Source: Patescibacteria group bacterium
GTDB lineage: Bacteria; Patescibacteriota; Patescibacteriia; UBA2591; JAQUPP01
Length of the DNA: 64,000 nt
Direction: 5' to 3'
Assembly: GCA_028716665.1 (NCBI GenBank)
Contig: JAQUPP010000001.1
Location: 192,467 to 256,466, forward strand
In this document: one piece after another, positions 3,382 through 21,537 of the stretch
Layout: the number at the start of each line of letters is the position of its first letter
How positions within the stretch are numbered: position 1 is the stretch's first letter
Translations under genes and position numbers: made by a program
The notes under the pieces: generated by a model
Told to the model about the DNA's origin: nothing
Databases searched by the model: none
What the model saw: only the letters and a program-made list of their open reading frames with translations

Positions 3382-3690
3382 ATGGCTGAAACACAAACAA
3401 ACGTGCAGACCTTTACTGAAACCATTGCCCAGAAGCGGAAATTAGAGAAAATTATTATTTCTTCATTACTTGACGAGGAGGATAAAAAACTTTGGTTTCA
3501 GCTAATTCATCAACTTAATTTAGAACAAGTTGATATTTTTATTGATTTAATTCAGAATAGCCCGGACAATCTCAATAAATTAACCGCGAATTTAAAAGAG
3601 AAAATAAAAATAATTGCTTCCGGAAATCAGGAATCCATCCAATCTCTTCTTAATGAAGAAGAGAAAATGATTGAGTCGCTGGGCGGCTAA
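3382..3690 (+). CDS. Hypothetical protein (102 aa)
   Basis: ORF preceded by the promoter-like element. Confidence 0.45.
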   Translation: MAETQTNVQTFTETIAQKRKLEKIIISSLLDEEDKKLWFQLIHQLNLEQVDIFIDLIQNSPDNLNKLTANLKEKIKIIASGNQESIQSLLNEEEKMIESLGG

Positions 3691-3711
3691 GATTTATAAA
3701 TAAATTTTAAT

Positions 3712-4596
3712 ATGTCAAATTTTGAACGACAATTTGAACCAGGATCGCAATTTCCGGAGAAAAAAGAATTTAAATCAGATATTACTGCTCAGATTCAAGA
3801 TGGTGAAGAAAGGTTTTCTAATAAATTTTCCAATGCTCCTCGCATAATTGGAAAGTTTATTTATGGTTTAGCTATTTTAACTACTTTTGCCGCTGGCGAA
3901 CCGGCGTTTGCTGCTCAAAAAGAACAAGTTCAACAAACTCAGCAAGAACAAGTAGCGCCTGTCAGTGGAGAACAAATGACCGAACAAGAAAAAGAAACAC
4001 AAAAACATCTTGAGTATTACCAGGAAATCCAAAAAGATTTTAATACAGCTATGGATTCTGCAGATGCCGGAAATAAAAAATTAATGGAGGAATATTTTTT
4101 TGATATTTCAAAAAAAGAACCGAAGGAAGGAATTGGAAAATTTCTTAAAGATGAGCAAATAAAACTTACCTATCAAAATATTTATCCAGCTAAAGTAAAA
4201 TATCTTTCCAATGGTGATGAAATTCAATTTTGGGTTGATCAAGAAGGATTTATTAAAGATAATATAAGATATACATCATTTCCTCCAATGATAGGAAGTG
4301 GTATTATCAATTCCTATAAATTTGTTGAGTTTATGAATGAGCGACATCCTGATAATGCGCCTCCAAGTGATATGACACCATCGCAAAGGATAGAACAGGA
4401 TAGAAAAAATTTAGAGAATGCAATTGATGAAATTAAATTTTACTTACTGGTTTATAAAGAAATAGACAATAATATAGAAGAAGAATATGCGCGTCAAAGA
4501 CTGATTGAGAAGGTAGAAAAGATAACAGCTGATTATGGTCAAGAGGTTTTTCAAGATGGTTTTTGGCAAGAATATCAAAAAATTGTCGGTAAATAA
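3712..4596 (+). CDS. Hypothetical membrane-anchored protein (294 aa)
   Basis: ORF with an N-proximal hydrophobic segment IIGKFIYGLAILTTFAAG. Confidence 0.5.
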   Translation: MSNFERQFEPGSQFPEKKEFKSDITAQIQDGEERFSNKFSNAPRIIGKFIYGLAILTTFAAGEPAFAAQKEQVQQTQQEQVAPVSGEQMTEQEKETQKHLEYYQEIQKDFNTAMDSADAGNKKLMEEYFFDISKKEPKEGIGKFLKDEQIKLTYQNIYPAKVKYLSNGDEIQFWVDQEGFIKDNIRYTSFPPMIGSGIINSYKFVEFMNERHPDNAPPSDMTPSQRIEQDRKNLENAIDEIKFYLLVYKEIDNNIEEEYARQRLIEKVEKITADYGQEVFQDGFWQEYQKIVGK

Positions 4597-4653
4597 AGTG
4601 ATATATAATCAATTAAAAGATTGTTTTTCAAACAATCTCAATGAGGTGAATAT

Positions 4654-4935
4654 ATGAGTGATATAGAACAAGAAGGAGAATTTAATTCCGACGATTCACA
4701 AAATAAAAAAACAGAACTAACTGAGGAAGAAAAATATAGATTAAATGAACTTAGAAATGACCCCGGCGTTGAGCAATATATTAAACTTAAAAATTCTACA
4801 AGTAATATAGAAGGTAAATTTGCAGTAGTGGATACTGGATTTGAAATAGCCCGACAATTATTATTCCGAGAAAATCCTGGTTTAGAAGAAAGAGTAATAG
4901 AATTAGAGGGACTAGAAAGAAAAAATCAAAATTGA
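4654..4935 (+). CDS. Hypothetical acidic small protein (93 aa)
   Basis: ORF with an AGGTGA RBS. It is preceded by the conserved leader hairpin and followed by a terminator. Confidence 0.5.
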   Translation: MSDIEQEGEFNSDDSQNKKTELTEEEKYRLNELRNDPGVEQYIKLKNSTSNIEGKFAVVDTGFEIARQLLFRENPGLEERVIELEGLERKNQN

Positions 4936-4947
4936 TATTTAAATAAA

Positions 4948-4982
4948 AAAAAGACTTGTTAAACAAGTCTTTTTTTTATTTA
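4948..4982. terminator. Bidirectional terminator hairpin between convergent genes
   Basis: aaaaaaaagacttgttaaacaagtctttttttt: a perfect stem with T-runs on both sides. Confidence 0.65.
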
Positions 4983-4990
4983 TCAATTAT

Positions 4991-7636
4991 TTACTCCAAA
5001 TGAGCTGTTTGAGCAAACTGGCTTATTTTATTTTGCAGCAAAGGATAAGTTTTTAAACTGTTATCTTTGTTGAAAACTTTATCAGCCGCTTCTTGAGCTT
5101 CTTTTAAAATAACAACATCGGAAAGTCGGGCAATTTTCAAGTCAGTGAAAAATCCGGCTTGGCTGGTGCCAAAAACTTCTCCCGGTCCGCGCATTTCCAA
5201 ATCCATTTCCGCTAATTCAAAGCCATTTTGAGCGGTAATTAGAGCTTTTAATCTTTGTTTTGCTTTTTCGCCTTCATTTTCCAAAAATAGAAAACAGTGA
5301 GATTGATGTTCGGCTCGGCCGATTCTGCCGCGCAATTGATAAAGCTGGGCCAGTCCGAATCTTTCTGCTCCTTCAACAATCATCACCGAAGCGTTTGGTA
5401 TGTCAATTCCGACTTCAATTACGGTCGTGGAAATTAAAATATTGATTTTATTTTGGTCGAATTTTTTCATTATCTCTTCTTTCTCTTTGGCTTTCATTCG
5501 GCCGTGGAGAAATCCCAAAGTTAAGTCAGGGAATATTTTTTCCGATAATTTTTTATATTCTTCTTTGACTGATTTTACGCCCAGTTGATCAGATTGGTCG
5601 ATTAAAGGGCAAATAACGAAGATTTGACGGCCATTTTTTATTTCTTCGCGGATAAATTTATAAATCTTTTCCGTTTCATCAGGTTTGACAATGCTGGTTA
5701 AAACTTTTTTTCTGCCCGGCGGCATTTCGTCAATAATGGATAAATCCAAATCGCCGTAAAGAGTCAAAGCGACTGAGCGGGGAATCGGGGTGGCGGTCAT
5801 TGATAAAAAATGCGGCATTAACGCGGACTTACACTGACTGGACGCTGACTTACGCGGACTTTCCATGTGATTTTTTTTATTGTCTGTGTCGGTCAGTGCT
5901 TCGTCTGTGTCAGTCTGTTTCATGTAGCCATGAATCGTTCTTTTTATTTGAATATCATCTTTCCCAAAATTGACTAATAACGCCAAATGATAATCGCTGC
6001 TTTTCAAATAATGCCAAATTTGTTCCGTTTCAAATTTACCGATAGAAGGCAAAGCTTTTATTTCCACAATTATTTTATCATCAACGATAAAATCCGGTCT
6101 GTAAGTGCCTATTTTTTCATTATCGTATTGGATATTTATAATTTTTTCTTTTTCAAATTTTATATTATTTTTTTTAAATTCTTTCTCAATTGCTTTTTGA
6201 TAGATATTTTCTTTATGGCCCAAACCAAGTTCTTTTTTAATTTTAAACATTATTCCCCTGATTTGATAAGTTAAATTTTCGTATAACAGATTATTATTTT
6301 TTTTGTCCGTATCAGTCCGTGTTATATCTGCGTTAGTCTGTGTAGATGTGTCTGTGTCTGTCCGTGTTTCGTCCGTGTTAGTCTGTGTCATGTCGGGATT
6401 GGACTTTGCCAGAAACGCGGCTCTTTGCGCTACGCCGAAACGGTGCTGTTCGTCAATAATCGTCATGGCCAAATTCTTGAATTTTACTTTTTCTTGAATT
6501 AAAGAATGAGTGCCGATAATCAATTTTATTTTTCCGGAAGATATTTCTTCATAAATTTTCACTTTTTTATTTTTTTCGTCCTTATTCGTTTTGATATTTT
6601 CACGAGTCAAAAGCCCGATTTTGAACGGGTAATCTTTCAGCAATTCGGTGATATTTTTAAAATGCTGCTCGGCCAAAATTTCAGTCGGAGCCATATAAGC
6701 CACTTGATAACCGTTTAAAAGAACGTTTAAAATGGCTAAAACGCCGACAATGGTTTTTCCGCTGCCTACGTCGCCTTCAAGAAGCCGGTTCATCGGCGCG
6801 CTTGTTTCCAAATTATTGATGATTTCCCAACTGGATTTTCTCTGGGCATCGGTTAGTTTGAAAGGCAAGTTGTCAACAAATTTTTTCGTTTCTTCCAATT
6901 TGAATTCAATTTTCGGCGCGACCAAACTTTTGATTTTTTGGCGGACCAATTGATTGCGGGTTTGAATTAAAAATAATTCGTCAAATTTCAAGCGGTGAGC
7001 GGCTCGTTCCAGCCATTCCCTGTTTTGCGGAAAATGAATTTGCTCCAAGGCAAAAGTAGTACTTGTTAAATTATATTTACTCCTTATTTCTCTGGGCAGC
7101 CAATCTTCAATATCTTGCGTCAAAGGAATGGTCTGGCGGATAAGATAGCGGATTTGTTTTTGGCTCAAATTGACCGTGGCGGGATAAATCGGCACTAATC
7201 GGCCGGTGTGGATCGGATCTTTGCTGTTTACGATTTCGTAGGACGGATTCAGAAATTGCATTCCGTAATAATCGTCAACATCTATTTTTCCGGCCAAATA
7301 AATTTCCAGTCCGGATCGTAAAATTTTTGTTAAAAAAGGCTGGTTGAACCAGACCACTTTAATAGAATCAGTTTTGTCGGAAATAATCGCCTCGGTAATA
7401 ACCATTTTTTTTCGCGGTGAACGGTGATTGGCGATTAAGCTGATTTTTCCTTTAATTGTGCCGGATTTTTTTGTTTTCAATTCGGCAATGGTTAAAATTT
7501 TGCTGTAATCGTCATAGCGAAAAGGAAAATGATACAGCAAATCCTCGGCCGTTTGAATTTTTAATTTTTCCAAACGGTTTAAGGTTGTTTTGCTCGCCGA
7601 AGTCAATTCACTTAATGGTGTTTTGAGACAAGGCAT
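4991..7636 (-). CDS. recG: ATP-dependent DNA helicase RecG carrying an in-frame ~190-aa insertion that contains a GxxExxY / PD-(D/E)XK domain
   Basis: N-terminal wedge-like region. Walker A LEGDVGSGKT, DEQH box IIDEQHRFG and motif III SMTATPIPRS are present. The C-terminal helicase motifs QLRGRIGR are also present. Confidence 0.9.
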   Translation of the reverse strand: MPCLKTPLSELTSASKTTLNRLEKLKIQTAEDLLYHFPFRYDDYSKILTIAELKTKKSGTIKGKISLIANHRSPRKKMVITEAIISDKTDSIKVVWFNQPFLTKILRSGLEIYLAGKIDVDDYYGMQFLNPSYEIVNSKDPIHTGRLVPIYPATVNLSQKQIRYLIRQTIPLTQDIEDWLPREIRSKYNLTSTTFALEQIHFPQNREWLERAAHRLKFDELFLIQTRNQLVRQKIKSLVAPKIEFKLEETKKFVDNLPFKLTDAQRKSSWEIINNLETSAPMNRLLEGDVGSGKTIVGVLAILNVLLNGYQVAYMAPTEILAEQHFKNITELLKDYPFKIGLLTRENIKTNKDEKNKKVKIYEEISSGKIKLIIGTHSLIQEKVKFKNLAMTIIDEQHRFGVAQRAAFLAKSNPDMTQTNTDETRTDTDTSTQTNADITRTDTDKKNNNLLYENLTYQIRGIMFKIKKELGLGHKENIYQKAIEKEFKKNNIKFEKEKIINIQYDNEKIGTYRPDFIVDDKIIVEIKALPSIGKFETEQIWHYLKSSDYHLALLVNFGKDDIQIKRTIHGYMKQTDTDEALTDTDNKKNHMESPRKSASSQCKSALMPHFLSMTATPIPRSVALTLYGDLDLSIIDEMPPGRKKVLTSIVKPDETEKIYKFIREEIKNGRQIFVICPLIDQSDQLGVKSVKEEYKKLSEKIFPDLTLGFLHGRMKAKEKEEIMKKFDQNKINILISTTVIEVGIDIPNASVMIVEGAERFGLAQLYQLRGRIGRAEHQSHCFLFLENEGEKAKQRLKALITAQNGFELAEMDLEMRGPGEVFGTSQAGFFTDLKIARLSDVVILKEAQEAADKVFNKDNSLKTYPLLQNKISQFAQTAHLE

Positions 7637-7843
7637 AATTTCAAAATTATTATAATATTATAATACAAATTTGACTTTTTGGCAAGCCCTCACACCAAAC
7701 TTAACACCTGATTGGCATATTATCAAAATTAGAAGGCGAAGCCGCTTCGCTTTTATTTTTATCTATTAAGAAAGCTTTATGTTGAGTTTTGGTGTGGGGG
7801 CAATAGGGTCAAACCCTTGATATTTATTAACCGAAATTAGAGG

Positions 7844-7871
7844 TTGACATTTAAAATTTTTTTGATAAAAT
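7844..7871 (+). promoter_or_regulatory. Sigma70-like promoter TTGACA-N16-TAAAAT
   Basis: ggTTGACAtttaaaatttttttgaTAAAAT. A second TTGACA-N17-TAAATT lies at 7947..7975, directly before the ATG at 7982, which suggests a possible leaderless mRNA. Confidence 0.4.
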
Positions 7872-7981
7872 AAAATAGTATTAAATCTGTTATCCTGTTC
7901 AAACCGGATGGTTGCGACGGACAATATGGTGGCGGTTTGTGAACCATTGACATTTCAGAAATTCTTTGATAAATTAGATTT

Positions 7982-8590
7982 ATGAAATTTTACGATCAAA
8001 AAGTTGTTCAAGAAGCAAGAAAAGAAAGAAAAAAGGGCTTATCAATCAGAGAAATAGAGAAAAAACTTAAAGTTCCCAATTTTACCATTTCTCGCTGGGT
8101 TAGAGACATTCCCTCTGACGCCAAAGCATTTAATTTAGCCAGACAGAAGGAAGAATTTTTGAAATCTGATTTGCGTAATTTATGCGACAATTTGAAAATC
8201 GATAAAAATCTTGCCAAAATTTTTGTCAGTTTATTATATTGGTGCGAGGGATCAAAATATCCATCCAGTAATTTTGTCGCTTTTTCCAATAGTGATTATA
8301 ACTTGGTTAAAGTATTTCTAGGGCTTTTAAGACGCGGTTTTGAAATTAATGAAGATAAAATCAGAATTCATTTGCAGCTTCATTCAACTCATTCTCCTAA
8401 AGAAATTACGGAATTTTGGAGTGATTTATTGGATGTGCCGACAACTCAATTTTATAAACCGACAATCACAAATCCGACAAATAGAATGAAAAGAATTGAT
8501 TATAGAGGGACATGTACAATTAAATATTTTGATGTTAAACTGTTATTAAAAATTATTGGTCTTTACGAAAGCTTAACTAAAAAGTTATAA
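7982..8590 (+). CDS. Hypothetical protein with an N-terminal HTH. It may be a single-motif LAGLIDADG-type endonuclease.
   Basis: HTH-like segment GLSIREIEKKLKVPNFTISRWV. The motif FVSLLYWCEGSK resembles a LAGLIDADG block. The gene ends 15 nt before tRNA-Ser. Confidence 0.45.
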   Translation: MKFYDQKVVQEARKERKKGLSIREIEKKLKVPNFTISRWVRDIPSDAKAFNLARQKEEFLKSDLRNLCDNLKIDKNLAKIFVSLLYWCEGSKYPSSNFVAFSNSDYNLVKVFLGLLRRGFEINEDKIRIHLQLHSTHSPKEITEFWSDLLDVPTTQFYKPTITNPTNRMKRIDYRGTCTIKYFDVKLLLKIIGLYESLTKKL

Positions 8591-15835: not shown

Positions 15836-18085
15836 ATGCCGGAGAAAACCAAAAAAATAGACATTGTTATTGAGATCCTTTGGTTGGCGATTATTTTTTT
15901 TATTCCTGTTTATCTTGATCAGGGATTATATAATGTTTTTGAAGTTGCCAAAAATGTTTTATTTCAAAATTTGACGGAAATTTTATTATTTGTTTATCTT
16001 GTAAAATTTATTCTTTTTTATCGGGAAAATATTAAAATTTTCCGCCAAAGAATAAAATATTTTATTCCGGCCGGTATTTTTATCGCCATTTTGGGCGTTT
16101 CCACGATTTTTTCTCAAGTGCCCTGGTTCAGTTTTTGGGGATCTTGGGAGCGGAGAATGGGTTATTTGACCTGGCTCCATTTTTTTGTTTTCGGGCTGCT
16201 TTTGCTTCTGAATATTAGAAAAAGAAATCAAATTTATCGGATTTTAGCGGCCATTTTGGCTTCTTCTTTTTTCGTCGGCATCTATGGCGCCATGCAATTT
16301 AAAGGATTGGACATATTCAAATGGACTTATGATCCGTTTGTCATGGGGCGGATTTTTTCCAGCATCGGTCAGCCGAATTTTTTGGGTTCTTGGTTGCTCC
16401 TGGTCATACCGTTGGTTATTTTTGGTTTAATAAACAAAAAATCATTAATCAAATATTTTTCATTCTTTTTATTAATTTTGCTTTTTTTAAATCTTCTTTG
16501 GACCAAATCGCGCGGGGCCTGGCTTGGCGCCTTAGTCATGATTGTTTTCATGGGTATTTTATTTTTCTGGCGCCGAGATAAAAAGAAGATTATTTTTCCC
16601 GCGATTTTTTTGTTCATAATAATTTCATTGTTATTTATCGCTCCGCATTTTAATATTTCAAAAGATAAATTGGCCGCAAATCCGCTTTTAACCCGTTTAA
16701 TGAGCTTAACTGATTTGAAAGAAGCCGGGCAATATCGCTTGATGCATTGGCAGGCAAGCGCGGATTTGATTAAAGACAAGCCGATTTTGGGATATGGCTT
16801 GGGTGGCCAGCGGTTTAATTTCCCTAAATATTATCAGCCAATATTCGCCGTTTACGAAAAACCTAATATTTATCTTGATTATGCTCATAATGATATTTTG
16901 GACACGCTTTTAATTTCAGGTTTTTTAGGTTTGGCGAGTTATTTATTTTTGATTGGTAGTGTATTTTGGTTTGGGCTAAGATATCTATTTAAAAATCCGA
17001 AATCCGAAATCCGAAATCCGAAACAAATTCCAAATTCTAAATTCCTAATTCTTTGTCTTTTGAGCGGACTTTTCGGTTATTTGGCCTCCATTCAATTTTC
17101 ATTTCATGTAATGTCCACTTTGCTTTATTTTTGGCTTTTCATGGTTTTGGTGATTATTTTATCAAATAATTTGACTGACTCGGAAAATAATTTAATTTCA
17201 AAAGAAAAACCGGAAGAATTTTTAACCCCGCTTAAAAGCTTGATGATTCTTTTTGTCTTAAGTTTAATTTTTTTATGTTCATGGCAATTCAATTTTAAAT
17301 TATATTTATCCAGCCATTATTTTTTAAATGCCCAAAAGGCAAAAGCAATGGGTGATTGGCAGGAAATGATTCAAGAAAACGAAAGAGCGATACAATTTAA
17401 TCCGAATAATCCTTATTTTCATCAAGAATTCGCTTTAAGTTTGTATCAAGCCGGTTTTTCATCTTCAACAAAAAAACTTGATTGGTTGGAAACAGGTATA
17501 GAAAATATTGAAATGATTCCTCAAAAAATCAGGCCGATTGAAGCGATTATTTGGCTAAGTTGGTTAAAAAGCGAGAAGGCCAATTTGACTAAAAATCAAA
17601 ATGATTTTCAAGCCGCGGAAAAAGCTTTTCAAGATTCGGCGGATTTTACCCCCGGCACGGCTCTTGTTTACAATCATTGGTGTGATTTGAAGGTTTATGA
17701 AGAAAATTGGGATCAAGCCGTTAAAATGTGCGAGAAAGCCATTTCTTTATATCCTGACCTCAACCACCCGTCTTTAAACGAAGAGCACTATCGCGATGTT
17801 GTTAATGAAATGACGCCGGTTTATCTTAATTTGGGATTTGTTTACAGAAAAATAGGCAACCCCCAAAAGGCAATTGACTATTATCAAAAATCAGCATATC
17901 CTATATTAAAGGGTTTTACTCCTCCTTATCCGAATGCTTTAAAAGTTATTTATCAAGAAATAATCACTACTTATCAATCAATGGGGCAAATTGACTCGGC
18001 GATTTATTGGGCTCAACATTTTCAAGTTCTCTGGCCTGATGATCCCAATTCTAACTTTATTTTAAATTCATTACAGCAAAAATAA
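15836..18085 (+). CDS. O-antigen ligase (Wzy_C)-like polytopic membrane protein with a C-terminal TPR-like region
   Basis: At least ten hydrophobic helices. WTKSRGAWLGALV is a typical O-antigen ligase loop. TPR-like repeats occur after aa ~480. Confidence 0.7.
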   Translation: MPEKTKKIDIVIEILWLAIIFFIPVYLDQGLYNVFEVAKNVLFQNLTEILLFVYLVKFILFYRENIKIFRQRIKYFIPAGIFIAILGVSTIFSQVPWFSFWGSWERRMGYLTWLHFFVFGLLLLLNIRKRNQIYRILAAILASSFFVGIYGAMQFKGLDIFKWTYDPFVMGRIFSSIGQPNFLGSWLLLVIPLVIFGLINKKSLIKYFSFFLLILLFLNLLWTKSRGAWLGALVMIVFMGILFFWRRDKKKIIFPAIFLFIIISLLFIAPHFNISKDKLAANPLLTRLMSLTDLKEAGQYRLMHWQASADLIKDKPILGYGLGGQRFNFPKYYQPIFAVYEKPNIYLDYAHNDILDTLLISGFLGLASYLFLIGSVFWFGLRYLFKNPKSEIRNPKQIPNSKFLILCLLSGLFGYLASIQFSFHVMSTLLYFWLFMVLVIILSNNLTDSENNLISKEKPEEFLTPLKSLMILFVLSLIFLCSWQFNFKLYLSSHYFLNAQKAKAMGDWQEMIQENERAIQFNPNNPYFHQEFALSLYQAGFSSSTKKLDWLETGIENIEMIPQKIRPIEAIIWLSWLKSEKANLTKNQNDFQAAEKAFQDSADFTPGTALVYNHWCDLKVYEENWDQAVKMCEKAISLYPDLNHPSLNEEHYRDVVNEMTPVYLNLGFVYRKIGNPQKAIDYYQKSAYPILKGFTPPYPNALKVIYQEIITTYQSMGQIDSAIYWAQHFQVLWPDDPNSNFILNSLQQK

Positions 18086-21091: not shown

Positions 21092-21537
21092 TTATTTCTT
21101 CAACCACACTGTACTCTTTTTTAAATTTATCAACAGCTGTTGATAATATTCTATTTTCTTGATATTTTGAGGCGTTCTTGCCTGTTTACGGATTAACTGC
21201 ATCTCTTCTAAATATATCTTAATCAAACACTCATCCATAGACTTAAACTTTGTGTCTATATTTGAATTGCAGGTGCAGTGATCTATATTATCATCTGAGT
21301 CTATATAATTAGACTCCATGTTCGGATTATCGGCCAGATTATTCTCTGAGACTGGATTCTTGGCTAAATTATTTTCTAAGACCGGATCATCGGATAGATT
21401 ATTTTGTGGGCCAGGATCGTATGGGTTTGGAATAAATGCTCTTGCAATCTCATCGGCAGTAAATAGTTCATTAGTATCACAAACTACTACGCCGCCCATA
21501 TTTCTGATTTTAATGTGTTCGTCAGTTTCGTTCATTT
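21092..21537 (-). CDS. Hypothetical protein with an internal 11-aa tandem repeat (ENNLAKNPVS...)
   Basis: The likely start is MNETDEH with a GGGAGG RBS. The ORF track continues it upstream in frame to 21697, overlapping the membrane-protein gene. Confidence 0.5.

What the first reader, a model, noticed from the sequence alone, without database searches (positions are those of the whole stretch)
5819..6403. In-frame GxxExxY / PD-(D/E)XK domain inserted into the RecG helicase core between motif II (DEQH) and motif III (SAT)
The recG reading frame continues uninterrupted through a ~190-aa insertion. Its core (aa ~451-568) is a complete GxxExxY-family domain. It has the motifs GHKENIY (G-x-x-E-x-x-Y) and RPDF...VEIK (PD-(D/E)XK). 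On both sides it is flanked by low-complexity Thr/Asp-rich linkers encoded by GTCTGT/GTCCGT hexamer repeats at 5815..5935 and 6295..6405. GxxExxY proteins are normally free-standing or encoded in rRNA intervening sequences. A nuclease-fold domain embedded in a branch-migration helicase is unusual. It could be a domesticated mobile insertion, or a cryptic intein-like or intron-like element that is removed.
Basis: partly seen in the sequence, partly recalled or inferred. Interest (0 to 1): 0.6.

Follow-up and report, generated by a model that had tools for sequence, protein, structure and literature searches.

The report
In-frame selfish nuclease element in recG
The recG helicase gene of this Patescibacteria (CPR) genome carries a small nuclease gene, bracketed by inverted repeats, that is read straight through as part of the helicase; it belongs to a large family, which I could not find described, of such elements living in-frame inside housekeeping proteins.

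Summary
recG (4991..7636, minus strand, 881 aa) contains a complete GxxExxY / PF13366 PD-(D/E)XK domain (E about 1e-32) between helicase motifs II and III.

A 98%-identical RecG from another assembly lacks it: 600 nt here replace a 51-nt native loop.

The "Thr/Asp linkers" are translated DNA repeats. They are 8-nt units (ACRCRGAC upstream, its reverse complement GTCYGCGT downstream) spaced 10-11 nt, so the nuclease ORF sits between inverted terminal repeats.

The same module sits in the same RecG loop in dozens of Patescibacteria, patchily, alongside ORF-less remnants. A DNA-level scan of GTDB species genomes found the 80 closest copies all embedded in host genes: RecG, LepA, LeuRS and glycosyltransferases. 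79 are in one open frame; the 80th has an assembly gap.

There is no Hint domain and no intron RNA family. Insert and host are both under strong purifying selection (dN/dS 0.03 and at most 0.025). AlphaFold2 gives a folded nuclease on two disordered linkers beside an intact helicase.

Best reading: a selfish mobile element, translated and retained, not spliced and not domesticated. How it moves is inferred only. I found no paper describing this.

The parts
4991..7636 (-). recG, the host gene (881 aa). It has the wedge domain and the DEAD, Helicase_C and RecG_dom3_C domains, and all helicase motifs are intact.
   Evidence: TIGR00643 710.6 bits against cut-off 659.4. Host dN/dS is 0-0.025 against the filled allele L010.
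5817..6416 (-). The stretch that differs from the empty allele. These 600 nt take the place of the 51-nt native loop (NQANPETKKRDPNYS), so they hold the whole element plus a few diverged loop codons.
   Evidence: blastn and codon comparison with L001 (P0030, 698 aa, 98% identical)
6304..6393 (-). Upstream (5') terminal repeat block: two 45-nt blocks holding six ACRCRGAC units at 10-11 nt spacing. It is translated as MTQTNTDETRTDTDTSTQTNADITRTDTD.
   Evidence: unit consensus and spacing across 78 elements
5924..6289 (-). GxxExxY / PD-(D/E)XK nuclease core (aa 450-571). It is predicted to be an independent alpha-alpha-beta4-alpha-beta2 globule.
   Evidence: AF2 pLDDT is above 90 in the full-length model and 94 alone. 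dN/dS is 0.03.
6200..6220 (-). The G473-x-x-E476-x-x-Y479 motif (GHKENIY).
   Evidence: G, K, E and Y are invariant in the 19-sequence alignment and in the 27 RecG inserts; the H is nearly invariant (at least 90%).
6056..6094 (-). The catalytic PD...ExK motif (D515, E525, K527).
   Evidence: D66, E76 and K78 of the alignment are invariant
5881..5925 (-). An extra direct copy of the upstream-type repeat block, placed downstream of the ORF (87% identical to 6349-6393). It is translated as MKQTDTDEALTDTD. It is degenerate in the 93%-identical allele L010.
5819..5861 (-). Downstream (3') terminal repeat block: four units (GTCCGCGT / GTCAGCGT / GTCAGTGT / GTCCGCGT on the sense strand) that are the reverse complement of the upstream units. 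It is translated as SPRKSASSQCKSA and abuts the host codons PHFL.
   Evidence: I1: 80% complementary to 6305-6324; RNA duplex of the two flanks -41 kcal/mol
6293..6397 (-). N-terminal disordered linker (aa 414-448).
   Evidence: AF2 pLDDT below 50
5825..5923 (-). C-terminal disordered linker (aa 572-604).
   Evidence: AF2 pLDDT below 50
6443..6454 (-). Helicase motif II, DEQH (aa 395-398), upstream host boundary motif.
5789..5797 (-). Helicase motif III, TAT (aa 614-616), within SMTATPIPR; downstream host boundary motif.

Best explanation
**What it is**
The segment is a selfish, laterally mobile DNA element. It is a 121-aa GxxExxY PD-(D/E)XK nuclease gene bracketed by terminal inverted repeats. 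Each repeat block holds 2-6 copies of an 8-nt unit spaced one helical turn apart. The element sits in-frame in the variable surface loop between RecG helicase motifs II and III.

**Shown**
- It is a gain relative to a near-identical empty allele.
- It is transcribed and translated as part of recG. The frame is open, and the host sequence downstream of it is still under strong purifying selection.
- The repeats are read as two disordered hydrophilic linkers of about 33 aa.
- The nuclease is predicted to fold as a separate globule, leaving the helicase lobes intact.
- It belongs to a family whose closest members are all embedded in-frame in conserved proteins of CPR bacteria.
- It has no splicing apparatus that I could detect.

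**Inferred**
- It is retained in the mature protein.
- It persists because insertions into tolerated loops are nearly harmless, and because the nuclease promotes copying of the element. The nuclease is strongly conserved and keeps its catalytic residues.
- For the copying step my leading model is this: the nuclease acts on the element's own phased repeat or hairpin ends, as in a TIR transposon or the REP/RAYT system. ORF-less hairpin derivatives would then be non-autonomous copies. Spread between species would be helped by recombination through the highly conserved host flanks.

**How sure**
Roughly 0.85 for 'selfish, in-frame, translated, retained'. Roughly 0.5 for the end-directed mobility step.
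For: **Empty against filled alleles**
- P0030/L001 is 98% identical in protein and 95% in DNA, and has a 15-aa native loop where the window has 198 aa.
- The window RecG is the only filled allele in its clade.

**Recurrence and decay at the RecG site**
- Of 116 RecGs, 27 carry the GxxExxY-type insert, 3 carry a second PF13366 subtype with different repeats, and about 8-9 carry ORF-less remnants built from upstream plus downstream repeats only. The rest are empty.
- P0093's 'empty' loop still holds one repeat unit, GCTCGTGGACAAAC.

**Lateral movement**
- The window's insert is closest (74%) to the insert of a RecG that is only 47% identical as a host. Inserts of the nearest filled hosts (65% host identity) are only 57-64% identical to it.

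**In-frame rule**
- A tblastn-based scan of GTDB species genomes returned 80 best loci. 79 are in one open frame with the host on both sides; the 80th has an N gap.
- Hosts were 52 RecG, 20 LepA-like, 4 LeuRS-like, 3 glycosyltransferases and 1 unidentified, at about 10 distinct sites.
- The protein-level search adds GatB, RtcB, DHFR, Wzy_C and EF-Tu-type GTPases.

**Selection**
- Core dN/dS is 0.03 (dS 0.32). Host N-terminal part is 0.025, and the C-terminal part has dN of 0 with dS 0.26, window against L010.
- The 27 inserts align without gaps, and E, Y, D, E and K are invariant.

**Structure**
- AF2 on the full protein gives mean pLDDT 82.6. The insert (449-571) is above 90 and the linkers (414-448, 572-604) are below 50.

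**The repeats belong to the element**
- The unit is ACGCRGAC upstream and GTCYGCGT downstream, modal spacing 10-11 nt.
- Cognate arms pair better than non-cognate arms (-53.4 against -46.2 kcal/mol, p = 3e-7). Shuffled arms give -34.9 and host control sequence -27.0.
- The variable base of the unit agrees between the two arms in 66 of 78 elements.
- Nuclease nearest neighbours share the unit type in 66 of 78 cases against 38 expected, across different host genes.
- The same architecture flanks a free-standing copy (L090) and a WOR-3 copy wedged between leuC and leuD (L092).

**No splicing apparatus found**
- No intein domain and no Rfam intron.
Against: - There is no experimental or expression data. 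Retention in the mature protein is inferred.
- No target-site duplication was seen at the window junctions.
- No clearly elevated divergence (co-conversion tract) lies next to the insertion: 10% over the 90 nt on the left and 2% on the right, against about 5% overall.
- The strong recurrence at exactly the same RecG, LepA and LeuRS sites, together with the absence of intergenic copies among the 80 closest relatives, fits site-specific homing better than end-directed transposition.
- Copies within the same MAG are not especially similar to each other (57-63%), so there is no sign of recent intragenomic transposition.
- The all-filled distant clades in the host tree are biased, because they come from the top-120 score cut.
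- The nearest solved structures show only generic PD-(D/E)XK similarity (Cas4 SSO0001, TM 0.54). The nuclease's substrate is unknown.
Confidence: 0.55

Rival explanations
1. The anatomy and fate are the same (in-frame, translated, retained), but the mobility step is classical homing. The embedded nuclease cleaves the empty recG (or lepA, or leuS) allele at the conserved motif next to the loop. Repair from a filled allele then copies the element in. On this view the repeats are merely linker-encoding sequence.
For: - The element recurs at the same site in hosts that are only 46-65% identical.
- The sites abut ultra-conserved motifs: DEQHRFGV / PHFLSMTATPIPR, RGITIK / LNLIDTPGH, and FTTRPDT.
- No intergenic copies occur among the 80 closest relatives.
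- The pattern of gain, degeneration and loss matches the homing cycle described in PMC1654191 (listed).
- From my own knowledge: PD-(D/E)XK homing endonucleases exist, for example I-Ssp6803I.
- A non-splicing homing insertion that is readable in-frame has a precedent in the ShiLan element (PMC11855218).
Against: - Nuclease sequences do not partition by target gene: RecG-RecG mean identity is 0.61 against 0.59 for RecG-LepA. A LepA copy's nearest relative can be a RecG copy at 72%.
- A 121-aa domain with no extra DNA-binding module is small for recognising several unrelated long targets.
- Homing gives no role to the helically phased inverted repeats that covary between arms and travel with the nuclease, nor to ORF-less hairpin copies at other sites.
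- There is no clear co-conversion tract.
Confidence: 0.27
2. The element is removed before RecG functions. Either a new kind of protein-level excision acts, or the inverted repeats form an RNA stem that is cut and religated (IVS-like or bulge-helix-bulge-like, perhaps with RtcB). In that case mature RecG would lack the insert.
For: - The choice of conserved sites in housekeeping proteins resembles that of inteins.
- The flanks can pair: -28 to -50 kcal/mol in 7 RecG elements.
- The in-frame requirement is compatible with protein-level removal.
- True inteins exist in related genomes (RadA in L004).
Against: - No Hint or intein domain.
- The linkers vary in length and sequence, and there is no conserved Cys, Ser, Thr or His-Asn at the junctions.
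- No Rfam family matches.
- RNA-level removal would not impose the open frame on both sides seen in 79 of 80 copies.
- The junction palindromes in relatives are strictly Watson-Crick with no G-U pairs, which points to DNA rather than RNA.
- Native loops at this site vary from 10 to 21 aa, so the site tolerates extra length.
Confidence: 0.08
3. The nuclease has been domesticated as a working accessory domain of RecG, for example by coupling branch migration to cleavage of junction DNA.
For: - There is strong purifying selection on the core, and the catalytic residues are intact.
- The only PDB sequence hit, and a very weak one, is the junction-resolving T7 endonuclease I (3cae, E 0.86).
- From my own knowledge: RecG acts on branched DNA.
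Against: - The same module sits in LepA, LeuRS, GatB, RtcB, DHFR, O-antigen ligase and glycosyltransferases.
- It is absent from a 98%-identical RecG and from every other member of the window's clade.
- Decayed ORF-less copies occur at the site.
- The linkers are translated DNA repeats that evolve faster than the core.
Confidence: 0.06
4. Assembly chimera, or a chance ORF fusion.
For: The window is from a metagenome-type genome.
Against: - The identical protein is on record at NCBI (P0029).
- A 93%-identical filled allele exists in an independent MAG, L010.
- More than 50 further species carry the same arrangement.
Confidence: 0.01

Closest known systems
Inteins that carry a homing endonuclease
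   Same: - In-frame insertion at conserved sites of housekeeping proteins (helicases, GTPases, aminoacyl-tRNA synthetases).
- Patchy distribution, with empty and filled alleles in close relatives.
- An embedded nuclease, and decayed copies.
   Different: - No Hint splicing domain and no conserved junction nucleophiles.
- Bracketed by nucleotide-level inverted tandem repeats.
- Predicted to stay in the mature protein on disordered linkers.
ShiLan insertion element in an actinobacteriophage DNA methylase (PMC11855218)
   Same: A homing-type insertion that is neither an intein nor an intron. It is readable in-frame with the host gene and is predicted to loop out of the host protein.
   Different: - In ShiLan the endonuclease is HNH and is encoded out of frame.
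- Here the nuclease is PD-(D/E)XK, is in the host frame, has terminal inverted repeats, and is found in cellular CPR genomes in many host genes.
Rickettsia palindromic elements (RPEs) and other MITEs inserted in-frame (reviewed in PMC10969869)
   Same: - Palindromic selfish DNA inserted in-frame in protein-coding genes and translated as extra loop peptides.
- The ORF-less remnants seen here (P0133, P0092, L064) look just like this.
   Different: - RPEs carry no ORF.
- Here the palindrome arms bracket a conserved nuclease gene, and the phylum is different.
REP sequences with their RAYT transposase
   Same: A small nuclease or transposase gene flanked by cognate inverted repeat units, with ORF-less repeat doublets elsewhere. 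Enzyme and repeats covary.
   Different: - RAYT is a HUH Y1 transposase, located in intergenic DNA of Proteobacteria.
- Here the enzyme is PD-(D/E)XK and the element lies inside coding sequence.
- The comparison rests on my own knowledge and was not tested here.
23S rRNA intervening sequences with an ORF (Coxiella or Leptospira IVS, PMC4990558; CPR rRNA insertions, PMC11270868)
   Same: A stem formed by inverted flanks around a small ORF, inserted in a conserved essential gene and spread horizontally.
   Different: - The host is rRNA, the element is excised by RNase III, and the ORF belongs to a different family (23S_rRNA_IVP).
- Here the host is a protein-coding gene that must be read through.
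Free-standing GxxExxY (TIGR04256 / PF13366) proteins
   Same: The same family by HMM, motifs and predicted fold. Free-standing copies (L090, L092) have the same phased inverted repeats on both sides.
   Different: Those are separate genes of about 125-140 aa. The window copy and its 80 closest relatives are internal domains of host proteins.

Membership tests
GxxExxY protein / PDDEXK_3 (TIGR04256, PF13366) | HMM score above the curated cut-off | tested here: met
   PF13366 scores 110.9 bits (cut-off 22). TIGR04256 scores 115.7 bits (cut-off 35)..
GxxExxY protein / PDDEXK_3 (TIGR04256, PF13366) | G-x-x-E-x-x-Y motif and the PD...(D/E)xK catalytic motif | tested here: met
   G473HKE476NIY479, and P514-D515 ... 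E525-I-K527. G, E, Y, D, E and K are invariant in the 19-sequence alignment and the 27 RecG inserts; P is nearly invariant (at least 90%).
GxxExxY protein / PDDEXK_3 (TIGR04256, PF13366) | PD-(D/E)XK alpha/beta fold | tested here: met
   The AF2 domain model has pLDDT 94 with topology alpha-alpha-beta4-alpha-beta2. The best Foldseek PDB hits are PD-(D/E)XK nucleases: Cas4 4ic1 (E 1e-3, TM 0.54), lambda exonuclease, Hjc and EndA.
GxxExxY protein / PDDEXK_3 (TIGR04256, PF13366) | Nuclease activity | not testable with these tools
   The function of the family is listed as unknown in PMC3424549.
RecG helicase | Equivalog HMM above cut-off, with wedge domain and helicase motifs I-VI | tested here: met
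   TIGR00643 scores 710.6 (cut-off 659.4) and NF008168 scores 824 (cut-off 718). RecG_wedge, DEAD, Helicase_C and RecG_dom3_C are present.
Intein | Hint / intein splicing domain | tested here: not met
   No intein family appears in the Pfam scan at E up to 0.01. By contrast, RadA in L004 does show Intein_splicing plus LAGLIDADG_3.
Intein | Conserved junction residues: N-terminal Cys/Ser, C-terminal His-Asn, and Cys/Ser/Thr at +1 | tested here: not met
   The junctions read ...NPD|MTQT and ...SALM|PHFL. The linkers vary in length (about 18-43 aa) and in sequence across 27 RecG inserts.
Group I / group II intron or other catalogued RNA element | Match to an Rfam covariance model | tested here: not met
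   cmscan at E up to 1 over 4800-7900 gave only chance-level sRNA and miRNA hits.
Homing genetic element (functional class) | Sporadic presence at one conserved site, with empty alleles in close relatives and incongruent element and host trees | tested here: met
Homing genetic element (functional class) | The encoded endonuclease cleaves the empty target site | not testable with these tools
   This needs a biochemical assay on the L001-type site.
TIR transposon / MITE-like element | Terminal inverted repeats specific to the element | tested here: met
TIR transposon / MITE-like element | Target-site duplication | tested here: inconclusive
   No direct duplication is seen at the window junctions. 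Some related copies instead show inverted duplications of the host flank.
TIR transposon / MITE-like element | ORF-less non-autonomous copies | tested here: met
   In-frame hairpin-only copies occur in the RecG loop (P0133, P0050, P0092, P0057 and others) and at other sites (L022, L031, L053, L064). None occurs elsewhere in this window.

The most novel reading that the evidence does not exclude
This is one instance of a class of bacterial mobile element that I could not find described. I would call them 'nuclease-in-a-hairpin' elements.
- They colonise conserved surface loops of many housekeeping proteins across the Candidate Phyla Radiation.
- They are obligatorily in-frame and are tolerated without any splicing.
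- They generate ORF-less in-frame derivatives that look like Rickettsia palindromic elements.
- In many copies the junctions carry perfect, strictly Watson-Crick inverted duplications of the host flank. This would point to an integration or maintenance mechanism that works through DNA hairpin intermediates, which I do not know of for bacterial elements.
Probability: 0.4. Interest if true: 0.85.

Novelty: new variant of a known kind. Interest (0 to 1): 0.72.

Why it matters
**If the reading holds**
- CPR bacteria host a widespread selfish element that occupies the niche of inteins without protein splicing. These bacteria are already known for rRNA insertions and reduced genomes.
- Essential enzymes such as RecG, LepA, LeuRS, GatB and DHFR would then carry a folded, presumably active nuclease on flexible tethers.

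**Practical consequences**
- Annotation: the NCBI record names this 881-aa RecG simply 'GxxExxY protein'.
- Protein-length and domain statistics in CPR genomes are affected.
- Phylogenetics of marker genes is affected.

**Scientific consequences**
- It suggests a role for the GxxExxY family (8317 hits in the 1.84-billion-protein representative library at E up to 0.001), whose function is currently listed as unknown.
- It links ORF-bearing elements to in-frame palindromic MITE-like peptides.
- It offers naturally validated permissive insertion sites and linker designs for protein engineering.

Tried and rejected
**Rejected by a test**
- Intron or other RNA family: the Rfam scan at permissive threshold found nothing relevant.
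- Intein: no Hint domain and no junction nucleophiles.
- Second copy in the window: tblastn of the domain and the 8-mer motif both find only this locus.
- Phage vector: the viral-contig scan found only distant relatives, with the best at 35% identity over the domain.

**Inconclusive**
- Co-conversion tract next to the insertion: only a weak left-side excess, 9 mismatches in 90 nt against 5% overall.
- Target-site duplication: none visible.
- Intragenomic transposition: copies in RecG and LepA of the same MAG are only 57-63% identical, so there is no support.

**Uninformative or unavailable**
- Literature: searches for GxxExxY, PDDEXK_3, CPR in-frame insertions and non-splicing homing found no description of this arrangement. 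The nearest is the ShiLan element.
- DNA of the empty sister allele P0110 could not be fetched.


Full report
**1. Observation**

The minus strand of 4991..7636 is one 881-aa ORF. It scores as RecG: TIGR00643 gives 710.6 bits against a cut-off of 659.4, and the wedge, DEAD, Helicase_C and RecG_dom3_C domains are present. Between DEQH (aa 395-398) and SMTATPIPR (aa 612-620) it contains a full-length match to PF13366 / TIGR04256 (aa 454-567, E about 1e-32). The motifs GHKENIY and RPDF...VEIK are present.

The flanking 'hexamer repeats' are better described as the 8-mer ACRCRGAC repeated every 10-11 nt.
- The 8-mer occurs 13 times in the window against 1.04 expected, and 10 of the 13 lie in 5821..6388.
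- Six copies lie upstream of the ORF on the sense strand. Two lie just downstream, inside a 45-nt direct repeat (87% identity).
- The outermost block, 5819..5861, carries the unit in the opposite orientation, reading GTCCGCGT / GTCAGCGT on the sense strand.
- The nuclease ORF therefore sits between inverted terminal repeat arrays.

**2. It is an insertion**

A search with the whole protein found the identical NCBI record (P0029, Patescibacteria, named only 'GxxExxY protein'). It also found a 698-aa RecG that is 98% identical and lacks the segment (P0030).
- At DNA level the two alleles are about 95% identical up to window 6417 and again from 5816 onward.
- In between, 600 nt in the window correspond to 51 nt in L001, which encode a native loop, NQANPETKKRDPNYS.
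- A third allele from an independent MAG (L010) is filled and 93% identical throughout.
- Between the window and L010, the core has dN/dS 0.03 (dS 0.32). The host has dN/dS 0.025 in the N-terminal part, and dN of 0 with dS 0.26 in the C-terminal part.
- So both the nuclease and the part of RecG downstream of it are being translated and selected.

**3. The RecG loop is a recurrent site**

I classified 116 related RecGs:
- 27 carry this module.
- 3 carry a second PF13366 subtype that lacks the GxxExxY motif and has quite different flank repeats.
- About 8-9 carry only the upstream and downstream repeats fused together, i.e. ORF-less remnants.
- The rest have 10-21-aa loops.

On a host tree, the window's RecG is the only filled member of its clade. 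Sister pairs elsewhere differ in state: filled against empty, and even GxxExxY type against type 2. The distant all-filled clades in that tree are an artefact of the score cut.

The 27 inserts align without a single gap. They are more conserved than their hosts (66% against 54% mean identity). The window's insert is closest (74%) to one in a host that is only 47% identical. One 'empty' loop (P0093) still contains a repeat unit. This is the pattern of repeated gain, decay and loss.

**4. It is one of a large family of in-frame elements**

phmmer of the domain against 1.84 billion representative proteins gave 8317 hits at E up to 0.001. Nearly all of the roughly 30 closest are internal segments of longer proteins. 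Pfam identifies those hosts as EF-Tu-type GTPases, LepA, GatB, RtcB, DHFR, LeuRS, O-antigen ligase, GT2 and GT4 glycosyltransferases and DEAD helicases.

To avoid gene-caller bias I scanned GTDB species genomes at DNA level with a profile of the inserts.
- The best 80 loci were nearly all CPR. Some MAGs carry other taxonomic labels, which I think are probably wrong.
- 79 lie in one open frame with at least about 55 host codons on each side, apart from copies cut by a contig end. The 80th has an assembly gap.
- Hosts were 52 RecG (one of them in the wedge domain), 20 LepA-like, 4 LeuRS-like, 3 glycosyltransferases and 1 unidentified.
- Every copy has the same layout: host, upstream repeats (read as TQTNAD, RIDADKRG and similar), core, YDTAR, downstream repeats (read as QRESASSPRESA and similar), host.
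- With about 10 independent sites all in-frame at both junctions, chance is excluded. An RNA-level excision would not impose this.

**5. The repeats belong to the element**

- Across 78 elements the unit is ACGCRGAC upstream and GTCYGCGT downstream, with modal spacing 10-11 nt.
- Cognate arms pair better than arms from different elements: -53.4 against -46.2 kcal/mol (p = 3e-7). Shuffled arms give -34.9 and host control sequence -27.0.
- The variable last base of the unit (..GAC, ..GAT or ..GAA) agrees between the two arms in 66 of 78 elements.
- Nuclease nearest neighbours share the unit type in 66 of 78 cases against about 38 expected, and each unit type occurs in several host genes.
- A free-standing copy (L090) and a WOR-3 copy wedged between leuC and leuD (L092) have the same phased inverted repeats.
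- ORF-less hairpin copies sit in-frame at other positions of RecG and LepA.

**6. Not spliced, as far as sequence can tell**

- There is no intein domain, although a true intein occurs in RadA of a related genome.
- No residue is conserved at the junctions, and linker length is variable.
- No Rfam family matches.
- AlphaFold2 on the full protein with 112 aligned sequences gives mean pLDDT 82.6. The helicase and wedge are confident. The insert (449-571) is above 90. Residues 414-448 and 572-604 are below 50.
- The picture is a folded globule on two disordered tethers in a loop that is naturally variable in length.
- The isolated domain models at pLDDT 94 with a PD-(D/E)XK topology. Its nearest solved structures are only generically similar: Cas4 SSO0001, lambda exonuclease, Hjc and EndA. 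The only PDB sequence hit is T7 endonuclease I at E 0.86.

**7. Mechanism**

Shown:
- gain relative to an empty allele;
- in-frame translation;
- purifying selection on the nuclease and on both halves of the host;
- lateral and ectopic movement of nuclease plus repeats as one unit.

Inferred:
- retention in the mature protein;
- the nuclease drives the element's propagation.

For the propagation step two models remain.
- **End-directed action.** The nuclease acts on its own phased inverted repeats or hairpins, as in transposon or REP/RAYT systems. This explains the repeats, their covariation with the nuclease, and the MITE-like copies.
- **Classical homing.** The nuclease cleaves the empty site. 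This explains the extreme site recurrence next to ultra-conserved motifs and the absence of intergenic copies.

Nuclease sequences do not partition by target gene, which weakens pure homing. There is no target-site duplication and no sign of recent intragenomic copying, which weakens simple transposition. I favour the end-directed model, helped by recombination through conserved flanks, at roughly 50% against 30%.

**8. An unexplained feature in relatives**

In 11-12 of the 20 LepA-like copies in the table, and at the 5' junction of about 20 of the RecG copies there, each host-element junction carries a short perfect palindrome.
- Its outer arm is host coding sequence and its inner arm is the exact reverse complement. 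An example is GTCAGAATG-ctgtat-CATTCTGAC, and at the other end CAGGTTGAGTA-ta-TACTCAACCTG, where 'QVE' is the inverted copy of 'LNL'.
- Perfect arms of 9 nt or more occur at 20% of 5' junctions and 16% of 3' junctions, against 1.3% of control windows.
- In ten LepA copies (nine distinct rows) the outer 7 pairs are 100% Watson-Crick. Three positions show compensatory double changes and there are no G-U pairs. This points to a DNA-level cause rather than an RNA-level one.
- The window's own element lacks these palindromes.
- They may be P-nucleotide-like scars of hairpin intermediates, or selected DNA hairpins. I could not decide which.

**9. Comparison and novelty**

The element behaves like an intein or homing element in its choice of niche. 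It behaves like Rickettsia palindromic elements in being translated palindromic DNA, and like REP/RAYT in pairing an enzyme with cognate inverted repeats. It fails the defining tests for inteins and introns.

The nearest published analogue I found is the ShiLan insertion in a phage methylase. That element is non-splicing and in-frame-readable, but its HNH nuclease is out of frame and it has no terminal repeats (PMC11855218).

Searches of the held literature found nothing on in-frame GxxExxY insertions. The family's function is listed as unknown (PMC3424549). I rate it a new variant of a known kind (selfish in-frame insertion elements), with a reasonable chance that the family deserves recognition as its own class.

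Noticed in passing
L021, L031, L037, L044, L047, L068, L077 (LepA loci; both junctions, about 40 nt outside the repeat arrays); RecG loci L082, L086, L087, L053 (5' junction): There are perfect local palindromes at the host-element junctions. The outer arm is host coding sequence and the inner arm is its reverse complement, covarying with the host's synonymous codons. Pairing is strictly Watson-Crick. Arms of 9 nt or more occur at 16-20% of junctions against 1.3% of control windows. The window's own element lacks them.
   Followed up: partly
P0133, P0050, P0092, P0104, P0051, P0057, P0112 (RecG motif II-III loop); L022 4768-4920, L031 4773-4930, L053 4643-4790, L064 4650-4830: ORF-less in-frame 'hairpin only' copies occur, made of upstream repeats fused to downstream repeats. 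They sit in the same RecG loop, at a second RecG site (CPLI..|..VKSVKEEYEKL), and in LepA. They resemble Rickettsia palindromic elements.
   Followed up: partly
P0036, P0055, P0069 (L006 10001-12571): A second PF13366 subtype occupies the very same RecG loop. It lacks the GxxExxY motif (it has REKQY instead) and has different flank repeats (read as DTKNTNTPELHE and FACNSRLS). P0069 and the GxxExxY-type P0033 are sister hosts.
   Followed up: partly
L103 (P0093) recG loop: This 'empty' 13-aa loop, ARGQTTLEVP, contains GCTCGTGGACAAAC. That is nearly identical to the first repeat unit of the filled allele in L004. It is either a footprint of a lost element or a unit-like native target.
   Followed up: partly
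L004 14040-16901: RadA next to recG carries a canonical intein (Intein_splicing plus LAGLIDADG_3, 953 aa). So true inteins coexist with these elements in related genomes.
   Followed up: no
window 3382-4935, compared with L001 3753-5102: Synteny breaks downstream of recG. Six of the related loci fetched (L001, L002, L003, L005, L006, L009) have radA as the next gene or within 1-2 genes after recG. The window instead has three small ORFs (102, 294 and 93 aa) with no significant Pfam match.
   Followed up: no
window 7982-8590 (+): This 202-aa ORF upstream of recG has only a weak HTH_3 hit and contains the sequence LLYWCEGSKY. It is conserved in L001 (749-1357), where a GIY-YIG ORF lies beside it. 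L007 has a faint LAGLIDADG_3 ORF in the equivalent place. It may be another homing-endonuclease-like gene.
   Followed up: no
window recG aa 415-603, compared with NCBIfam NF008168 and NF008170: Two NCBI RecG equivalog models are 795 and 826 positions long. They have about 95-130 profile positions between motifs II and III that this protein does not match. Other RecG lineages therefore seem to carry a different insert in the same loop.
   Followed up: no
L010, near recG codon 350: The 93%-identical filled allele has a net 9 extra in-frame nucleotides at a small GC-rich palindrome, TCCGCCAGCTGGCGGA, that is absent from the window.
   Followed up: no
L031, L022, and several loci: Contigs carrying typical CPR-type elements are labelled Nanoarchaeota, Spirochaetia, Gammaproteobacteria or Bdellovibrionales. 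These are probably mislabelled or mis-binned MAGs, though cross-phylum transfer is also possible.
   Followed up: no
L092 2440-3060 (WOR-3 bacterium): A GxxExxY element with the same phased inverted repeats sits exactly between leuC and leuD. Its upstream repeats form the C-terminal tail of LeuC, and the nuclease is fused in-frame to the N-terminus of LeuD.
   Followed up: partly
window 16993-17052 and 21323-21405: There are tandem repeats elsewhere in the window: AAATCCG x4.4 followed by CAAATTC x4, and a 30-nt unit x2.8. They look unrelated to the element.
   Followed up: no
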